A stretch of 64,000 nucleotides of DNA, from positions 2,039 through 66,038 of IMG/VR virus record IMGVR_UViG_3300045741_000104; one strand, given 5' to 3'. The DNA is from a virus (Duplodnaviria; Caudoviricetes). Below are positions 1 through 2,874 of the stretch, one piece after another. The notes beneath the pieces were generated by a model, which was not told where the DNA came from, ran no database searches, and worked only from the letters and a program-made list of their open reading frames with translations. Both the position numbers and the translations under genes were made by a program. Every line of letters begins with the position of its first letter. The first letter of the stretch is position 1.

Positions 1-160
1 CGGTGCTCTCCTCTAGAGAATACCCGCACCTCTCAATGAGATCGAGGTCGTAAGGCACACTGAACTCTTGCGTTTCTCCACGTAGAATAACAGTGTTTTG
101 TGCTCTGTCCAGCCGAACTACCCGGTATCGTTTGCCGGTGTGGATATTGCGAAAGAACAT
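1..160 (-). CDS. Hypothetical protein, runs off the window edge (MFFRNIHTGKRYRVV...)
   Basis: Its ATG at 160 overlaps the polA TGA stop, with GGAG upstream. The frame stays open to position 1. Confidence 0.55.
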   Translation of the reverse strand, partial: MFFRNIHTGKRYRVVRLDRAQNTVILRGETQEFSVPYDLDLIERCGYSLEEST

Positions 161-2874
161 CATTTTATCTCCTCCAGCGTTCCGTATGAGAAGCCCCACT
201 TGGCATCCCAAGGCATAGGCACAGGCGACTTGAAGCCCCATGCCTCCTCGTAATCGATACTGTCAAGCACAGCTCTCATCTCCATTATGGTGTCAAGCGG
301 TATGTCTTCTTTTACATAGAAGATAAGCCCATCGTGAAGATCGAAAGCAAAGCGCCCTCCCATGTTCCTGACGACAGGAGCAAGCGCCGCCATCGCCAGA
401 TACTTCTGGTCCGCGCCGGTGCCTTGGATGCGGTAGTTGATCGAGGTCGAGCCCATCGACCAGCCCAGCGCTCCGCCCCAGTCGCCCAGCACCGTAACGC
501 GCCGGCCGGCGAACGTCTCCACATAGCCGGTCTGCTGCGTCTGATCGATCTGACGAGCCCAATACTGGCGCACGCCGGGGTAGGTGCGGTGATATGTGTC
601 GCAGATGTCCTGCGCCTCCTCGATGGTCATGTTCAGCCCATACTGGACCCGCGCCACGAACAGCAGCTTCTTGGCCGAGGTCCTATACTGAAGAGAGTTG
701 TGGACAATCTTACCGTTGGCCGCAAACCTGTGACGAGGGCCACAGTTCACAATGTCGTAGACCCACGCCTTGTGCGGTTCGCAAGGTTCTGCTGTCGCGT
801 AGCCAAGCGCAAGTTGCCACGCTCGTAGTGGCCGTCGTTGTCCACTCGGTCGATGTCCAGTCGTTTGTAGGTGGGGTGTGGAAGATGCTCCTTGACCCAC
901 TCCACCGCCTCCTTGACGGAGGCAAAGCGACACTCGATCCCACGCCCGCCGTAGTTGTGGTAAGACTTGTCTGATGGATTGTTGCAGCGTTGAAACCATG
1001 CGTTCACACGCTTCTGCAACGTCTTGTCTACCGCTGTCTCGCAGATCAATCGGCCGCTGGACATGTGGCGCTGGCGCGTAGCGCACGCCTTGCACTGCAC
1101 CGAGCGCCCCGTTTCCATGAACCGCAGATTGGCGTCCCTCTTCACTCCACAGTCGCAGCGCGCCTGAACATAGAGCGCCCCCGATTTCTGAAAGGGTGCG
1201 TCGGACAAGACCGTCCACGATCCGAACCGTTGACCGGAACTGACGCGGCCATCCCTCGCCCAGCGCGGGTTCAATGCGCCAGCCATGTCTGGCCGCGTCA
1301 CGAATTTCGACCCAGTCGCCATCCACCAGCACCTTGTGCTCTGGGGTCGCGGTAAGGCTGTCGTAATTAACGACAACCTTGTAGCCGCTGCACACCACAC
1401 CATCATGGCTGACAAAATCTTGCCCGTCCCAGACAAGATCGTCAGCACGCACATGTTCGATACTGCAAGGACCGCGATCTGTCAAGACTTGGGTTCCGGC
1501 AGCCATGCAGAGGTTAGCGATCTTGCCGAGCTGGCGCTGCGCCTTGGCGACCTTATCGCCGGTGTGGACGCGCCGGATCAGTTCCCGGTAGTCCACCCGC
1601 GCGATGGCCGCTCCCATGAAGCTGTGGGCGTCCTCACCGGGCTGGCACAGCCCCAGCATCGTCTCGTCGCCCGAGGCGACCGCCATCCACCTGAACTCTT
1701 GGCTGGCAGCGTCGAACTCGACCATGCGGTAGCCCAGCGGGGCGCACAGGATCGACCGATACTCAGGCCCACGCTTGATCTGGTGCAGGGCGAAGCCTGT
1801 GGGCAGGTCGACGTTGCGCTCCTTGCCCGTCTTGGGGTTCACCTCCCGCGCTGGCTGGTCGGAGCTATAGGTCATGCGCCCCGAGTAGGTGCCGAACATG
1901 CGCGCCTGCGGATGGGCGCAGCCGTCGCCATTGTAGAGGGCTGACGCCAGCGGCGTGTCGGCGAACTTGGTGCGGTTCCCGTTGGCGTCCCTGAACGCCT
2001 TGACGATCTCAGCCCTGACATCCACCAGCGCCAGCTCGTGCAGCGTCTCCTTGCCGGTGCTGTTGGCCCCGGTGGCGGTCTTGACGACCGGCTCCAGCCC
2101 CCACTTGCCGAACATCAGCTCGCCGAGCTGCTTGGACGAGGCCAGCACCTTCTCTGTGGCCCCATAGGGCTCCAATTCGCGCAGGGCGTAGGCAGCCTCG
2201 CTGTTCAGGTGAGCCTGTAGTTCCGCGGCGGCGATGATGTCGATAGGCAGCCCGCGCAGGTTCGCCAAGGCGACATGGGGGATCGAGTGCGCCTCGATCA
2301 CCGCCGCCTGAAGCTGCGCCGGCGTGAGCAGGTTGAACCACCGCTTGGCCAGCGTGATGGTCAGGGCAACGTCCATCTCGTTATACTCGGCGAGTTTCTT
2401 CAGCTCGTCGGGATCGGTCGAGTGAAAGTCGATCTCCTCCTCATAGCCGGCGAACTCGGGCAGGAACTCCCGCACACAGGTCTTCAGGCTGTAGGACCGC
2501 TTGCGCGCGCGGGCGATGTCATACTCGGGATCGACATCGTAGTGCTTCCACAGCAGGTAGCCATCGAGCCAGAAGACCCTGAACACCAAGTCTTCCAGCC
2601 CGTAGGCGATCAGCCACTGGATATCGAACTGCACGAACCAGCCGACAATGCTTCGCTGTTCGCGAATAGCGAACTCCAGCATGGCGCGCATGTCGTCCTT
2701 GGACGGGAACAGCTTGCTGACCACAAGCCACTCGCCATCCTTGTAATAGCGCCAGACGAAGCTCGTGACCCACGCATCGCCAGTGGCGACCCTCCATGGC
2801 TGAAGGGCATACTCTGGCTTCGTGCCCGACGTTTCAACGTCGAAGCCGATCACTTGGTTATTGTCCCAGCTCAC
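160..2874 (-). CDS. polA: Family A DNA polymerase with 3'-5' exonuclease domain, intein-containing
   Basis: Exonuclease motifs FDVETSG, FDIQW, YNEMD. Polymerase motifs TYSGRM, FDAASQEFR (A), RQLGKIANL/SLQY (B, split by the intein), NYRIQGTGAD and DLHDG (C). Confidence 0.95.
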   Translation of the reverse strand: MSWDNNQVIGFDVETSGTKPEYALQPWRVATGDAWVTSFVWRYYKDGEWLVVSKLFPSKDDMRAMLEFAIREQRSIVGWFVQFDIQWLIAYGLEDLVFRVFWLDGYLLWKHYDVDPEYDIARARKRSYSLKTCVREFLPEFAGYEEEIDFHSTDPDELKKLAEYNEMDVALTITLAKRWFNLLTPAQLQAAVIEAHSIPHVALANLRGLPIDIIAAAELQAHLNSEAAYALRELEPYGATEKVLASSKQLGELMFGKWGLEPVVKTATGANSTGKETLHELALVDVRAEIVKAFRDANGNRTKFADTPLASALYNGDGCAHPQARMFGTYSGRMTYSSDQPAREVNPKTGKERNVDLPTGFALHQIKRGPEYRSILCAPLGYRMVEFDAASQEFRWMAVASGDETMLGLCQPGEDAHSFMGAAIARVDYRELIRRVHTGDKVAKAQRQLGKIANLCMAAGTQVLTDRGPCSIEHVRADDLVWDGQDFVSHDGVVCSGYKVVVNYDSLTATPEHKVLVDGDWVEIRDAARHGWRIEPALGEGWPRQFRSTVRIVDGLVRRTLSEIGGALCSGALRLWSEEGRQSAVHGNGALGAVQGVRYAPAPHVQRPIDLRDSGRQDVAEACERMVSTLQQSIRQVLPQLRRAWDRVSLCLRQGGGGVGQGASSTPHLQTTGHRPSGQRRPLRAWQLALGYATAEPCEPHKAWVYDIVNCGPRHRFAANGKIVHNSLQYRTSAKKLLFVARVQYGLNMTIEEAQDICDTYHRTYPGVRQYWARQIDQTQQTGYVETFAGRRVTVLGDWGGALGWSMGSTSINYRIQGTGADQKYLAMAALAPVVRNMGGRFAFDLHDGLIFYVKEDIPLDTIMEMRAVLDSIDYEEAWGFKSPVPMPWDAKWGFSYGTLEEIK
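697..1509 (-). mobile_element. Intein (271 aa) inserted in PolA motif B
   Basis: Block A CMAAGTQVLTDRG, block B LTATPEHKV, block F VYDIVNCGPRHRF, block G IVHN followed by Ser+1. Removing it restores KIANL-SLQY. Confidence 0.93.
747..1322 (-). CDS. HNH-type homing endonuclease overprinted in the +1 frame inside the PolA intein (start at 1322 or 1286)
   Basis: GQRFGSWTV, ARCDCG, CKAC, RCNNPSDKSYHNYGGRGI and LDIDRVDNDGHYERGNLRLATRQQN are hallmark motifs of phage HNH-type endonucleases. AAGGTG lies 7 nt before the ATG at 1322. Confidence 0.85.
   Translation of the reverse strand: MATGSKFVTRPDMAGALNPRWARDGRVSSGQRFGSWTVLSDAPFQKSGALYVQARCDCGVKRDANLRFMETGRSVQCKACATRQRHMSSGRLICETAVDKTLQKRVNAWFQRCNNPSDKSYHNYGGRGIECRFASVKEAVEWVKEHLPHPTYKRLDIDRVDNDGHYERGNLRLATRQQNLANRTRRGSTTL

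What the first reader, a model, noticed from the sequence alone, without database searches (positions are those of the whole stretch)
697..1509. PolA intein hides its homing endonuclease in a second reading frame
Seen: the intein frame has intact splicing blocks A, B, F and G, but its central ~180 aa contain no recognisable endonuclease and read like off-frame sequence. The +1 frame on the same strand encodes a complete HNH-type endonuclease (747 to 1286 or 1322) whose stop lies inside block F. Both frames are stop-free over more than 540 nt. Established: intein endonucleases are normally in-frame domains released by splicing. Inference: this is a dual-coding mobile element in which the intein frame is an open spacer and the nuclease is made separately, by an internal start (AAGGTG before ATG 1322) or a +1 frameshift. 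That would uncouple nuclease dose from polymerase dose and hide the nuclease from annotation.
Basis: partly seen in the sequence, partly recalled or inferred. Interest (0 to 1): 0.88.

Follow-up and report, generated by a model that had tools for sequence, protein, structure and literature searches.

The report
Polymerase intein hiding an out-of-frame nuclease gene
A self-splicing protein insert (intein) in this phage's DNA polymerase gene carries its likely homing nuclease as a separate gene written one base out of step over the same DNA; the layout is real and under selection, but this kind of intein was first described in 2025.

Summary
The family-A polymerase gene (minus strand, 160-2874, one 904-aa ORF) holds a 271-aa intein (697-1509). 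Its ends fold as a Hint splicing domain. Its middle, residues ~105-237, is structureless in the polA frame. The +1 frame (747-1286, or to 1322) encodes a 179-191 aa nuclease-like protein (phrog_374 "HNH endonuclease", E 7.9e-31; model pLDDT 90.7).

It is not an assembly artefact. Three independent viral contigs show the same two-frame layout. Codon permutation expects 3.8-14.9 stops in the polA frame and none is seen in 4 of 4 loci. Substitutions and GC3 switch phase to the nuclease frame in the centre.

The layout is widespread:
- 51 of the 80 best viral loci carrying this nuclease
- 34 of 44 bacterial-genome loci
- named phages, where it sits unannotated under "DNA polymerase"

Another 17 viral loci are split-intein "fractured" polymerases with the same nuclease.

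How the nuclease is translated is inferred. ATG 1286 is conserved in the window's clade (4 of 4). ATG 1322 is excluded in two relatives.

The general design is in print (bioRxiv 10.1101/2025.01.02.630785), but not for this nuclease family, frame or host gene. This scan has already found it on other DNA (61 notes, at least 54 genomes).

The parts
160..2874 (-). Family-A DNA polymerase precursor gene: one 904-aa ORF with a GTG start preceded by GAGGAG. N-extein is 455 aa, intein 271 aa, C-extein 178 aa.
   Evidence: ORF list. Pfam DNA_pol_A E 3.3e-36 in two stretches. Extein and intein lengths.
697..1509 (-). Intein in the polA frame (271 aa, CMAAG...KIVHN, followed by Ser+1). It is inserted in polymerase motif B, between GKIANL and SLQYR.
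   Evidence: Translation. Invariant C1, T55, H58, D252, G257 and N271 in 36 related inteins. The best PDB matches of the AlphaFold model are inteins and other Hint-fold domains: gp41-1, Ssp DnaB, Npu DnaE and others, E 4e-3 to 5e-2, prob 0.94-1.00. Curated models stay below threshold: TIGR01445 19.4 bits against 24.5, Hint_2 20.9 against 28.4.
1246..1509 (-). N-terminal splicing domain of the intein (residues 1-88, blocks A and B).
   Evidence: pLDDT 95-97 over residues 1-80. Substitutions fall at the polA wobble position here.
799..1197 (-). polA-frame spacer (intein residues about 105-237). It is open but has no structure and no conservation of its own. This is the translated 'wrong' frame of the nuclease gene.
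   Evidence: pLDDT below 50 and no secondary structure. No family hit. Amino-acid identity is lower than in the +1 frame. Stops are avoided.
697..777 (-). C-terminal splicing strands of the intein (residues 245-271, blocks F and G: VYDIVNCGPRHRF...KIVHN).
   Evidence: pLDDT 85-96, strands E246-254, E261-264 and E267-270. The substitution phase returns to polA position 3.
747..1286 (-). Nested nuclease gene in the +1 frame: 179 aa plus a TGA at 749-747 inside intein block F. The start at ATG 1286 is the one conserved in the window's clade.
   Evidence: phrog_374 'HNH endonuclease' E 7.9e-31. Model pLDDT 90.7 with a C-terminal beta-beta-alpha element (E144-147, E159-162, H164-169). 112 BFVD matches at E<=1e-3. 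An ATG 17 codons before the G-x-x-F-G motif is present in 4 of 4 clade members.
1287..1322 (-). Possible N-terminal extension of the nuclease ORF, from ATG 1322 (191 aa). AAGGTG lies upstream at 1338-1333, with 7 nt between it and the ATG.
   Evidence: Sequence. The equivalent ATG exists in L003/L041. In L042 and L043 the nuclease frame only opens 24 and 23 codons before the G motif, which rules out that start there.
1226..1300 (-). Window-specific RNA hairpin that encloses ATG 1286.
   Evidence: A 121-nt fold has MFE -57.5 kcal/mol and z -3.07, with 0 of 200 shuffles as stable. The long stem is not conserved in L041, L042 or L043: consensus energy is -6.3 kcal/mol.

Best explanation
The window holds a composite selfish element inside the phage's essential family-A DNA polymerase gene. 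It is a class-1 intein with a free-standing-type homing-nuclease gene overprinted in the +1 frame, at the place where canonical inteins carry an in-frame endonuclease domain.

Shown by comparison:
- The polA frame is kept free of stops through the nuclease gene but is otherwise unselected there.
- The nuclease frame is under purifying selection.
- The two splicing modules are under purifying selection in the polA frame.

Inferred:
- Ribosomes translating polA read the centre as a roughly 130-160 aa unstructured spacer.
- The N- and C-terminal Hint modules fold around it and splice the whole 271 aa out. This restores motif B (GKIANL-SLQYR) and an active polymerase.
- The nuclease is made as a separate 179-aa protein by internal initiation on the same mRNA, most likely at ATG 1286. 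That start has no Shine-Dalgarno core and sits in a hairpin in this phage, so output is probably low.
- The nuclease cuts intein-less polA alleles in co-infecting phages, so that repair copies intein and nuclease together (homing).
- It is a His-Me-finger variant with D-R...Y...N in place of D-H...N...N. As in PacI, the invariant Tyr would replace the missing catalytic His.

The confidence given (0.8) is for the architecture and its selection. Internal initiation at 1286 taken alone I put at about 0.55.
For: Same layout in independent assemblies. L003, L004 and L005 (nuclease 70, 43 and 40% identical) all have an open polA frame with the nuclease at +1.

Stop avoidance. Permutation expects 3.8-14.9 stops and finds 0 in 4 of 4 loci, with P 0.0007, 0.011, <1/3000 and <1/3000.

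Phase switch of substitutions and amino-acid identity, and of GC3. Exteins have GC 0.83-0.93 at polA position 3. The centre has 0.67-0.87 at polA position 1, which is nuclease position 3.

Structure.
- Intein model: pLDDT at least 95 for residues 1-80 and 85-96 for residues 245-271, but below 50 for residues 105-237. Its PDB matches are inteins.
- Nuclease model: pLDDT 90.7. It resembles 112 phage proteins in BFVD at E<=1e-3, several of them named HNH endonuclease.

Spread.
- 51 of 80 viral loci are nested: 42 at +1 and 9 at +2.
- 34 of 44 loci in bacterial genomes are nested.
- 7 of 8 host ORFs tested are DNA_pol_A (2 of them marginal) and 1 is a helicase.
- There are at least 10 distinct insertion contexts.

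Stability. On the nuclease tree, all 37 '+1 nested' rows lie on one side of a branch (SH-aLRT 93). Five layout changes are needed, against 29.2 in shuffles.

Separate translation.
- 17 relatives encode the same nuclease as an independent ORF between split-intein halves.
- 20 of 36 related inteins create a +1-frame ATG from the conserved Tyr codon plus the next G. TAT-G occurs 18 times against TAC-G 6 times. A GGAGG-type core from the (K/R)-E-V codons lies upstream.
- Candidate nuclease ATGs carry a Shine-Dalgarno core in 41 of 132 cases, against 954 of 7148 for all ATG triplets.

PacI-like motif. The profile aligns l-e-i-D-R-i-D-x-x-x-x-Y-e-p-G-N-l-R-w-a with PacI's DR...Y...N segment. R147, Y154 and N158 are invariant in 69 sequences. 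PacI's Tyr-for-His substitution is described in PMC5714182 (passages read).
Against: There is no expression, splicing or cleavage data for this or any relative.

The window's own candidate ATGs have no GGAG, GAGG or AGGA core: 0 of 5. No sigma-70-like promoter was found in 600-1700.

The nuclease lacks the canonical catalytic His.
- Pfam and NCBIfam give no hit.
- The PDB fold search gave nothing significant. The best E was 0.47, PacI was rank 3 at E 0.57, and Gme HNH was rank 4.
- The PacI profile match is weak (E 0.15).
A DNA-binding role without cleavage is therefore not excluded.

Curated intein models are below their cut-offs.

Evidence for recent homing is only suggestive. Wobble-site differences between the window and L003 are about 0.42 in the nuclease region against about 0.62 in the exteins. 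The dual coding could itself slow those sites.

Raw-read support could not be obtained.
Confidence: 0.8

Rival explanations
1. Assembly or sequencing artefact. Two compensating indels flank an ordinary in-frame HNH domain, and the open polA frame is a chance by-product of high GC.
For: The record is a metagenome-assembled viral contig. The window is 60% GC, which makes long off-frame ORFs more likely. Read support could not be checked.
Against: The same frame offset recurs in every collection searched:
- 3 of 3 intein-bearing polA relatives from other viral contigs
- 51 of 80 further viral loci
- 34 of 44 loci in bacterial genomes, including complete chromosomes
- isolated phages: Javan113 at +1 and BPS11Q3 at +2
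The low-GC relatives L004 and L005 expect 10.5 and 14.9 stops and have none. No locus has the nuclease in frame.
Confidence: 0.01
2. Relic. A free-standing nuclease gene once invaded the intein and is now silent. Only polA-frame openness is maintained, and the nuclease ORF is intact by recency.
For: No Shine-Dalgarno core precedes the window's ATGs. The ATG sits in a hairpin. Decay does occur in relatives: L049 has a premature stop in the nuclease frame while its polA frame stays open. The catalytic His is absent.
Against: The nuclease frame shows the 3>1>2 substitution pattern of purifying selection over divergence down to about 40% identity. In one search the nuclease frame is broken within the aligned match only in L049, so it is open through the match in 79 of 80 viral loci. 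The invariant residues R147, Y154, N158 and the near-invariant four Cys are kept. The layout persisted through at least 10 changes of insertion site, which needs an active mobility function.
Confidence: 0.07
3. Programmed +1 ribosomal frameshift. A fraction of ribosomes translating polA shift into the nuclease frame, making an N-extein-IntN-nuclease fusion that ends at TGA 749-747.
For: The nuclease frame is +1 of polA on the same mRNA. In the window it is open for 82 codons upstream of the nuclease homology. No strong independent start signal is present in the window.
Against: In L042 and L043 the nuclease frame opens only 24 and 23 codons before the conserved G motif, 6-7 codons before the conserved Met. 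That leaves almost no room for a shift site. No shift site was searched for. Nine viral loci, and phage BPS11Q3, use the other offset (+2) with the same nuclease. The 17 fractured relatives express it as a stand-alone ORF. Many relatives carry a Shine-Dalgarno core plus ATG.
Confidence: 0.04
4. The +1-frame protein is made but is not a homing nuclease. It could be a His-less DNA-binding regulator, or a nicking or accessory protein that serves the phage, for example in competition with other phages.
For: The canonical general-base His is replaced by an invariant Arg. Curated HNH models do not match. The PDB fold search is not significant. BFVD neighbours carry mixed names: AP2/ERF domain, DNA-binding domain protein, HNH endonuclease.
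Against: The protein is tightly and repeatedly associated with inteins and split inteins at conserved polymerase sites: 68 of 80 viral loci. This is the signature of a homing partner. PacI shows that a DR...Y...N His-Me finger can cleave DNA (PMC5714182; alignment). The four-Cys zinc site and the beta-beta-alpha element are retained.
Confidence: 0.1

Closest known systems
Non-canonical actinobacteriophage inteins with the homing endonuclease in a separate reading frame (Gosselin, Arsenault and Gogarten, bioRxiv 10.1101/2025.01.02.630785; abstract, sections 8 and 15 and term passages read)
   Same: The splicing domain is in the extein frame. The endonuclease-slot region is open but structureless in that frame. 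A free-standing-type endonuclease ORF lies over it. The proposed origin is invasion of an intein by a free-standing endonuclease gene. The unit still appears mobile.
   Different: The types reported there are antisense LAGLIDADG, antisense VSR-like, and a same-strand endonuclease VII-like gene in frame 3; HNH is reported only in frame. The hosts are actinophage terminase, minor capsid, thymidylate synthase and DNA polymerase. The only polymerase host named in the passages I read is the DNA polymerase III alpha subunit.

Here the nuclease is a His-less, PacI-like His-Me finger, with no Pfam Endonuclease_7 or HNH hit. It lies in frame 2 (+1) of a family-A polymerase intein in an uncultured phage. 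Relatives occur in many bacterial phyla. I could not see that paper's supplementary tables, which might list related cases.
Fractured genes: split-intein halves flanking a free-standing endonuclease gene (Dassa et al. 2009, PMC2677866; abstract and term passages read)
   Same: The same three parts occur in the same order: N-extein-IntN, endonuclease ORF, IntC-C-extein. The ORF ends overlap. The loci are phage DNA-metabolism genes. 17 of the 80 relatives found here have exactly this split layout, with a nuclease and intein homologous to the window's.
   Different: In the window the host frame is not broken, so the intein is contiguous and would splice in cis. The endonucleases in Dassa's loci were GIY-YIG and Vsr-like. 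The paper says HNH 'could' fracture genes but reports none with a split intein.
ShiLan insertion: out-of-frame HNH hidden in a mycobacteriophage DNA methylase (Arsenault, Gosselin and Gogarten 2025, PMC11855218; abstract and section 4.3 read)
   Same: An HNH gene is overprinted out of frame in a host gene whose frame stays open. The nuclease is missed by annotation. How it is translated is unknown.
   Different: ShiLan has no splicing domains, so the insert stays in the mature protein as a loop. Here the flanking Hint modules should remove it.
Canonical class-1 inteins with an in-frame endonuclease domain (LAGLIDADG such as PI-SceI; in-frame HNH inteins)
   Same: Blocks A, B, F and G are present. 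The insertion is at a conserved catalytic motif of an essential replication gene. The endonuclease sits between blocks B and F.
   Different: In canonical inteins the endonuclease is part of the same polypeptide and is made 1:1 with the host protein. Here it is a separate gene product in another frame. 0 of 80 relatives have it in frame.
PacI restriction endonuclease (PDB 3LDY/3M7K), group 20 of the His-Me finger classification (PMC5714182, passages read)
   Same: The active-site segment D-R-x-D-x4-Y-x-P-x-N-x-R-x-A aligns with the family's invariant R147, Y154 and N158. Cys-rich zinc sites are present. The canonical general-base His is absent.
   Different: The sequence match is weak (profile E 0.15) and the fold match is weak (E 0.57). 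PacI is a 142-aa restriction enzyme, not a homing endonuclease. The family here adds an N-terminal CxC...CxxC module and the NYGxRGI motif.

Membership tests
Class-1 intein (Hint fold, cis-splicing) | Nucleophilic Cys/Ser at position 1, block B TxxH, block F Asp, C-terminal His-Asn, and Cys/Ser/Thr at +1 | tested here: met
   C1, T55, H58, D252, H270-N271 and S+1 are present in the window. C1, T55, H58, D252, G257 and N271 are invariant in 36 related inteins. 40 of 40 relatives with both ends detected pass the boundary check.
Class-1 intein (Hint fold, cis-splicing) | Hint fold formed by the N- and C-terminal segments | tested here: met
   The AlphaFold model has pLDDT of at least 85 for residues 1-88 and 245-271. 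The best PDB matches are inteins and other Hint-fold domains, prob 0.94-1.00. E-values are only 4e-3 to 5e-2, and none is at or below 1e-3.
Class-1 intein (Hint fold, cis-splicing) | Match to curated intein family models above threshold | tested here: not met
   TIGR01445 intein_Nterm scores 19.4 bits against a cut-off of 24.5. Pfam Hint_2 scores 20.9 against 28.4. The C-terminal 45 aa has no hit. The sequence is divergent, so this reflects model sensitivity and is not evidence against the fold.
Class-1 intein (Hint fold, cis-splicing) | Protein splicing that restores a functional extein | not testable with these tools
   Inferred only. Removing residues 456-726 joins GKIANL to SLQYR, which matches motif B of the intein-less relatives.
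Intein with out-of-frame (overprinted) homing endonuclease gene | The endonuclease ORF lies in another frame, between the splicing blocks, while the host frame stays open | tested here: met
   The nuclease is at +1, and both frames are open for 540-576 nt.
Intein with out-of-frame (overprinted) homing endonuclease gene | Selection acts on the nuclease frame in the centre and on the host frame only for openness | tested here: met
   Substitution phase and frame-specific identity, GC3 phase and stop-avoidance permutation.
Intein with out-of-frame (overprinted) homing endonuclease gene | The nuclease is translated separately and promotes homing | not testable with these tools
   Only indirect evidence is available: Shine-Dalgarno core plus ATG in relatives, stand-alone ORFs in fractured relatives, and many insertion sites.
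HNH / His-Me finger endonuclease | Beta-beta-alpha-metal core | tested here: inconclusive
   The model shows a beta-beta-alpha element at its C-terminus (E144-147, E159-162, H164-169) at pLDDT 90 or more. The PDB fold search found no significant match: best E 0.47, PacI E 0.57, Gme HNH E 0.65.
HNH / His-Me finger endonuclease | Catalytic His (general base) at the end of beta1, in the D-H motif | tested here: not met
   The position is an invariant Arg (R147, I-D-R) in 69 of 69 sequences. An invariant Tyr (Y154) lies 7 residues later, as in PacI. PacI's use of Tyr in place of His is described in PMC5714182.
HNH / His-Me finger endonuclease | Metal-ligand Asn and match to curated HNH models | tested here: inconclusive
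   N158 is invariant and N170 is conserved in at least 90% of sequences. phrog_374 and phrog_3377 'HNH endonuclease' match at E 7.9e-31 and 4.8e-18. Pfam and NCBIfam HNH models give no hit at E<=1. The profile against PDB gives I-HmuI at E 0.4.
Fractured gene (split intein plus free-standing endonuclease) | The host gene is broken into two ORFs within the intein | tested here: not met
   The window's polA is one uninterrupted 904-aa ORF. 17 of its 80 relatives do meet this feature.

The most novel reading that the evidence does not exclude
The overprinted layout is not a short-lived accident on the way to a split intein or to an in-frame domain. It is an old, stable design with a single origin, in which intein and nuclease are mutually locked.

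The nuclease's ribosome-binding site and start codon are written into conserved intein codons: (K/R)-E-V gives GGAGG, and Tyr-TAT plus G gives ATG. The nuclease's stop is written into block F. Neither partner can therefore be lost or moved without damaging the other.

This one unit has hopped between at least 10 sites in family-A polymerases and a helicase, across many bacterial phyla. It has repeatedly given rise to split-intein 'fractured' polymerases.

The window's clade would then be a derived form. It lost the block-encoded start (TAC instead of TAT) and re-evolved a weak, hairpin-masked start at 1286, throttling nuclease dose.
Probability: 0.3. Interest if true: 0.65.

Novelty: new variant of a known kind. 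Interest (0 to 1): 0.45.

Why it matters
The finding extends a class of selfish element described only in 2025. It shows that the intein 'endonuclease slot' can hold a separate gene in another frame, with a nuclease family, frame and host gene not reported in the texts I could read.

The arrangement is common in uncultured phages, prophages and isolated phages, where the nuclease goes unannotated under 'DNA polymerase'.

The relatives found here give a homologous series: free-standing nuclease, contiguous intein with an overprinted nuclease, and split-intein fractured gene. That series makes the Dassa 2009 model for the origin of split inteins, and for how inteins acquire endonucleases, directly testable.

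There are two practical points. Annotation pipelines miss these genes. The compact splicing modules, which tolerate a roughly 130-160 aa unstructured insert, may be useful to intein engineers.

Tried and rejected
Read support. One DNA run holds the stretch (share 1.00) and may be the source sample. No RNA holder is listed. Laying its contigs on window 500-1800 placed 0 contigs. The tool warns this can be a false blank, so nothing can be said from reads.

Near-identical phage DNA. A megablast of polA against 50,697 GenBank phage records found no match.

Pfam and NCBIfam on the nuclease gave no family. The NT5C hit at E 0.11 was dismissed as noise.

The PDB fold search of the nuclease model gave nothing at E<=0.001.

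A promoter and terminator scan of 600-1700 found 0 promoter-like and 0 terminator-like sites.

RNA structure at the start. There is a strong hairpin in the window. The long stem is not conserved in three relatives, so I do not claim a conserved regulatory structure.

L100 passed my ORF criterion for 'nested'. On inspection it is a 5'-truncated remnant lacking most of IntN. It is still among the 51 and among the 37 '+1' tree rows.

L084 and L086 have host ORFs that end soon after IntC.

The tree used 68 of the 80 viral loci plus the window. Rows left out were the near-duplicates L054, L062, L071, L077, L082, L086, L103, L106, L109, L112 and L117, and the broken L049.

The intein alignment A3 used 35 of the 40 boundary-checked inteins plus the window. 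L049, L062, L071, L077 and L082 were left out.

Only 12 of the 17 fractured loci were read in detail. Only 8 of the 51 host ORFs were scanned with Pfam.

I considered a formal dN/dS estimate and did not run one. The sequences are saturated at wobble sites, and overlapping frames violate the models. The phase counts were used instead.

I did not use the search for homologous proteins, the search of protein representatives, the metagenome scan, complex prediction or the protein atlas. The viral and genome scans already answered the question.

Literature. Searches found no paper describing an out-of-frame HNH inside a family-A polymerase intein.

Full report
WHAT IS THERE

The window is part of a 66,038-bp IMG/VR virus record rated 100% complete. 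On the minus strand, 160..2874 is a single 904-aa ORF with Pfam DNA_pol_A in two stretches (E 3.3e-36). Residues 456-726 of this ORF (window 697-1509) interrupt polymerase motif B between GKIANL and SLQYR.

In the polA frame this insert reads CMAAGTQVLTDRG...TATPEHKVLV...VYDIVNCGPRHRF...KIVHN|S. That is Cys1, block B TxxH, block F Asp, and a terminal His-Asn followed by Ser, the residues of a class-1 intein.

The +1 frame of the same strand is open from 1481 to a TGA at 749-747. From ATG 1322 or ATG 1286 it encodes a 191- or 179-aa protein. This protein matches phrog_374 'HNH endonuclease' at E 7.9e-31 over residues 29-186. The PHROG match of the intein frame covers only its N-terminal residues 19-72.

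IS IT REAL AND SELECTED?

Four lines of evidence agree.

(i) Independent assemblies. A scan of viral contigs with PolA gave 38 loci. Three of them (L003, L004, L005) have an intein at or next to the same site. All three have the nuclease homologue (70, 43 and 40% identity) in the +1 frame and an uninterrupted polA frame.

(ii) Stop avoidance. I permuted synonymous codons within each nuclease gene, 3000 times per locus. This predicts 5.2, 3.8, 10.5 and 14.9 stops in the polA frame. The observed number is 0 in 4 of 4. Stop-free permutations were 0.0007, 0.0107, 0/3000 and 0/3000. The third frame behaves as expected, with 5, 3, 11 and 22 stops.

(iii) Substitution phase.
- Window vs L003: the exteins and splicing modules have 51/43/103 differences at polA codon positions 1/2/3. 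The centre has 75/39/43.
- L004 vs L005: the flanks have 54/40/106 and the centre has 116/64/39.
- polA position 1 is the nuclease wobble position, so the centre evolves as a nuclease gene.
- Amino-acid identity in the centre is 0.50-0.87 in the nuclease frame, against 0.20-0.63 in the polA frame.

(iv) Composition. GC at polA position 3 is 0.83-0.93 in the exteins. In the centre the GC maximum moves to polA position 1 (0.67-0.87).

I could not check reads directly: one possibly-source DNA run was found, and 0 contigs were laid.

STRUCTURE

With an alignment of 36 related inteins, AlphaFold gives pLDDT 95-97 for residues 1-80 and 85-96 for residues 245-271. For residues 105-237 it gives pLDDT below 50 with no secondary structure. 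The best PDB matches of this model are inteins and other Hint-fold domains (gp41-1, Ssp DnaB, Npu DnaE, Mtu RecA and others). Their probability is 0.94-1.00 at modest E-values of 4e-3 to 5e-2. Curated intein HMMs stay below their cut-offs.

The nuclease frame, with 69 homologues, folds confidently (pLDDT 90.7). It has a Cys-rich beta module, a helical middle and a C-terminal beta-beta-alpha element. It resembles 112 predicted phage proteins at E<=1e-3, several of them named HNH endonuclease. It resembles no solved structure significantly.

WHAT KIND OF NUCLEASE?

In 69 sequences the invariant residues are Y112, R115, G116, R147, Y154 and N158. Four Cys (C44, C46, C65, C68), D146 and N170 are at least 90% conserved.

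The motif is I-D-R-x-D-x4-Y-x-x-G-N-x-R. The canonical D-H general base is an invariant Arg. A profile search of PDB sequences puts PacI first (E 0.15). It aligns exactly this segment with PacI's DR...Y...N. I-HmuI follows at E 0.4.

The His-Me finger classification paper states that PacI lacks the catalytic His and uses a Tyr of the omega-loop instead (PMC5714182, passages read). I therefore read the protein as a PacI-like, His-less His-Me finger. The statistics are weak, so this is an inference.

HOW COMMON, AND WHAT ARE ITS RELATIVES?

A viral-contig scan with the nuclease alignment confirmed 483 stretches and kept the best 80 loci. Three of the 80 are the contigs of L003, L004 and L005.

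- In 51 of 80 the nuclease homologue lies wholly inside a same-strand ORF of at least 400 aa in another frame. The offset is +1 in 42 and +2 in 9. 50 of the 51 have a homologous intein N-module immediately upstream.
- One of the 51, L100, is a truncated remnant.
- Of 8 host ORFs scanned, 7 are family-A polymerases (2 marginal, 2 fused to UDG) and 1 is a helicase.
- Boundary checks passed in 40 of 40 inteins with both ends detected. The flanking extein motifs show at least 10 different insertion contexts. The window's clade sits 3 codons downstream of the site used by L004 and L005, within motif B.
- Of the 29 non-nested loci, 17 have IntN and IntC in separate ORFs around the nuclease gene. L111 has only a distant IntN hit. 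11 have no intein nearby.
- In the 12 of those 17 read in detail, the N-ORF stops soon after the N-terminal splicing module (roughly 110-165 aa after the first intein residue). The C-ORF begins M(L)VPVYDI...HN|S. This is the 'fractured gene' layout of Dassa et al. 2009, with a nuclease type that paper did not report.
- No locus has the nuclease in frame with the intein.

In one-genome-per-species bacterial and archaeal contigs, 34 of 44 confirmed loci are nested at +1. The criterion here was looser: the host frame open across the match, plus an intein half within 1.5 kb. These include complete chromosomes of isolates. The nearest is on a 59.6-kb contig binned with an Acidobacteriaceae MAG (70% identity), a weak hint of the host.

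In GenBank phages, 533 records match. 16 of the 40 listed matches lie under CDSs annotated only as DNA polymerase. Two were checked: Streptococcus phage Javan113 (+1) and Salmonella phage BPS11Q3 (+2, 'DNA polymerase precursor, intein-containing'). Neither has a nuclease annotated.

EVOLUTIONARY PATTERN

On a maximum-likelihood tree of 69 nuclease sequences, all 37 '+1 nested' rows fall on one side of a branch (SH-aLRT 93). The 12 free-standing rows fall on one side of another branch (94). Ten of the 12 fractured rows form a clade (99). The +2 rows cluster with the other two fractured rows.

The four layouts need 5 changes, against 29.2 in label shuffles (0 of 200 as low). The tree is midpoint-drawn and unrooted, so direction is not established. 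A single origin of the +1 layout is not ruled out, and it is not proven. The rows I left out are listed under Tried and rejected.

HOW IS THE NUCLEASE MADE?

This part is inference.

In 20 of 36 related inteins, the conserved Tyr of the (K/R)-E-V-I-T-Y-(D/E/G)-G block is encoded so that the Tyr (or His/Asn) codon plus the next G forms an ATG in the +1 frame. TAT-G occurs 18 times and TAC-G 6 times. The (K/R)-E-V codons supply a GGAGG-type core about 9 nt upstream. Across 69 loci, 41 of 132 candidate ATGs have such a core, against 954 of 7148 (13%) of all ATG triplets.

The window has TAC at that Tyr, so it lacks this start. In its clade (window, L041/L003, L042, L043) an ATG 17 codons before the G-x-x-F-G motif is present in 4 of 4. 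In the window this is ATG 1286. It is excluded in L042 and L043, where the nuclease frame opens only 24 and 23 codons before the motif.

None of the window's 5 ATGs has a strict Shine-Dalgarno core. ATG 1286 lies in a strong local hairpin (z -3.07). The long stem of that hairpin is not conserved.

A +1 frameshift is unlikely for three reasons: the short open upstream stretch in L042 and L043, the +2 relatives, and the stand-alone ORFs of the fractured relatives.

COMPARISON WITH WHAT IS KNOWN

The design, an intein whose endonuclease is in a reading frame other than that of the extein and splicing domain, was described for actinobacteriophages in bioRxiv 10.1101/2025.01.02.630785. I read the abstract, sections 8 and 15 and term passages.

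That paper reports antisense LAGLIDADG, antisense VSR-like and same-strand frame-3 endonuclease VII-like genes, with HNH only in frame. It proposes origin by invasion of an intein by a free-standing endonuclease gene.

An out-of-frame HNH without splicing domains is known in a methylase (PMC11855218). Fractured genes are known with GIY-YIG and Vsr-like nucleases (PMC2677866).

My searches found no paper on an out-of-frame HNH-like gene in a family-A polymerase intein.

This scan's own earlier notes record the same phenomenon on other DNA: 61 notes in at least 54 genomes. I reached my reading before consulting them, and they agree with it.

VERDICT

The thing is a new variant of a recently described kind, differing in nuclease family, frame, host gene and phage groups. 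It is one member of a large, stable family.

The architecture and its selection are shown. Splicing, separate translation, nuclease activity and homing are inferred.

Noticed in passing
G000:C1:1456-1683 (minus strand; about 500 bases beyond the window's left edge, downstream of polA); locus L002: A second, free-standing paralogue of the nuclease's C-terminal half (36% identity to residues 108-186, inside a 205-aa open frame) lies just downstream of the polymerase gene.
   Followed up: no
L049:2914-3760 (viral contig), compared with L047: The nested nuclease frame has a premature stop (69-aa open stretch) while the 930-aa polymerase frame stays open. This is an example of nuclease decay inside an otherwise intact intein.
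   Followed up: partly
L064:1857-4304: The same intein plus +1 nuclease unit sits in a ResIII/DEAD-box helicase gene instead of a polymerase (Pfam). This points to extein switching.
   Followed up: partly
L004:4309-5283 and L005:4357-5331, compared with window 697-1509: Homologous inteins occupy two sites 3 codons apart in motif B: GKF^(S/C)NLSxQYR against GKIANL^SLQYR. The L004/L005 nucleases also carry an extra conserved C-terminal region of about 60 aa, and their frame runs through blocks F and G.
   Followed up: partly
L052:423-4283 and L055:195-4292: The host polymerases are fused to an N-terminal uracil-DNA glycosylase superfamily domain (Pfam UDG, E 7e-19 and 1.5e-17).
   Followed up: no
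L100:2377-3696: This is a rearranged locus. Only the last ~29 residues of IntN, the nuclease gene, IntC and the C-extein remain. An unrelated ORF upstream is in frame with the nuclease.
   Followed up: partly
window 1226-1300 (minus strand): A strong local RNA hairpin encloses ATG 1286 (z -3.07). The long stem is specific to this phage and is not conserved in three relatives.
   Followed up: yes
L165 (KX405002.1, Salmonella phage BPS11Q3) 4217-4991: Two further small nuclease genes, annotated 'NHN endonuclease' and 'restriction endonuclease', lie directly downstream of the intein-containing polymerase.
   Followed up: no
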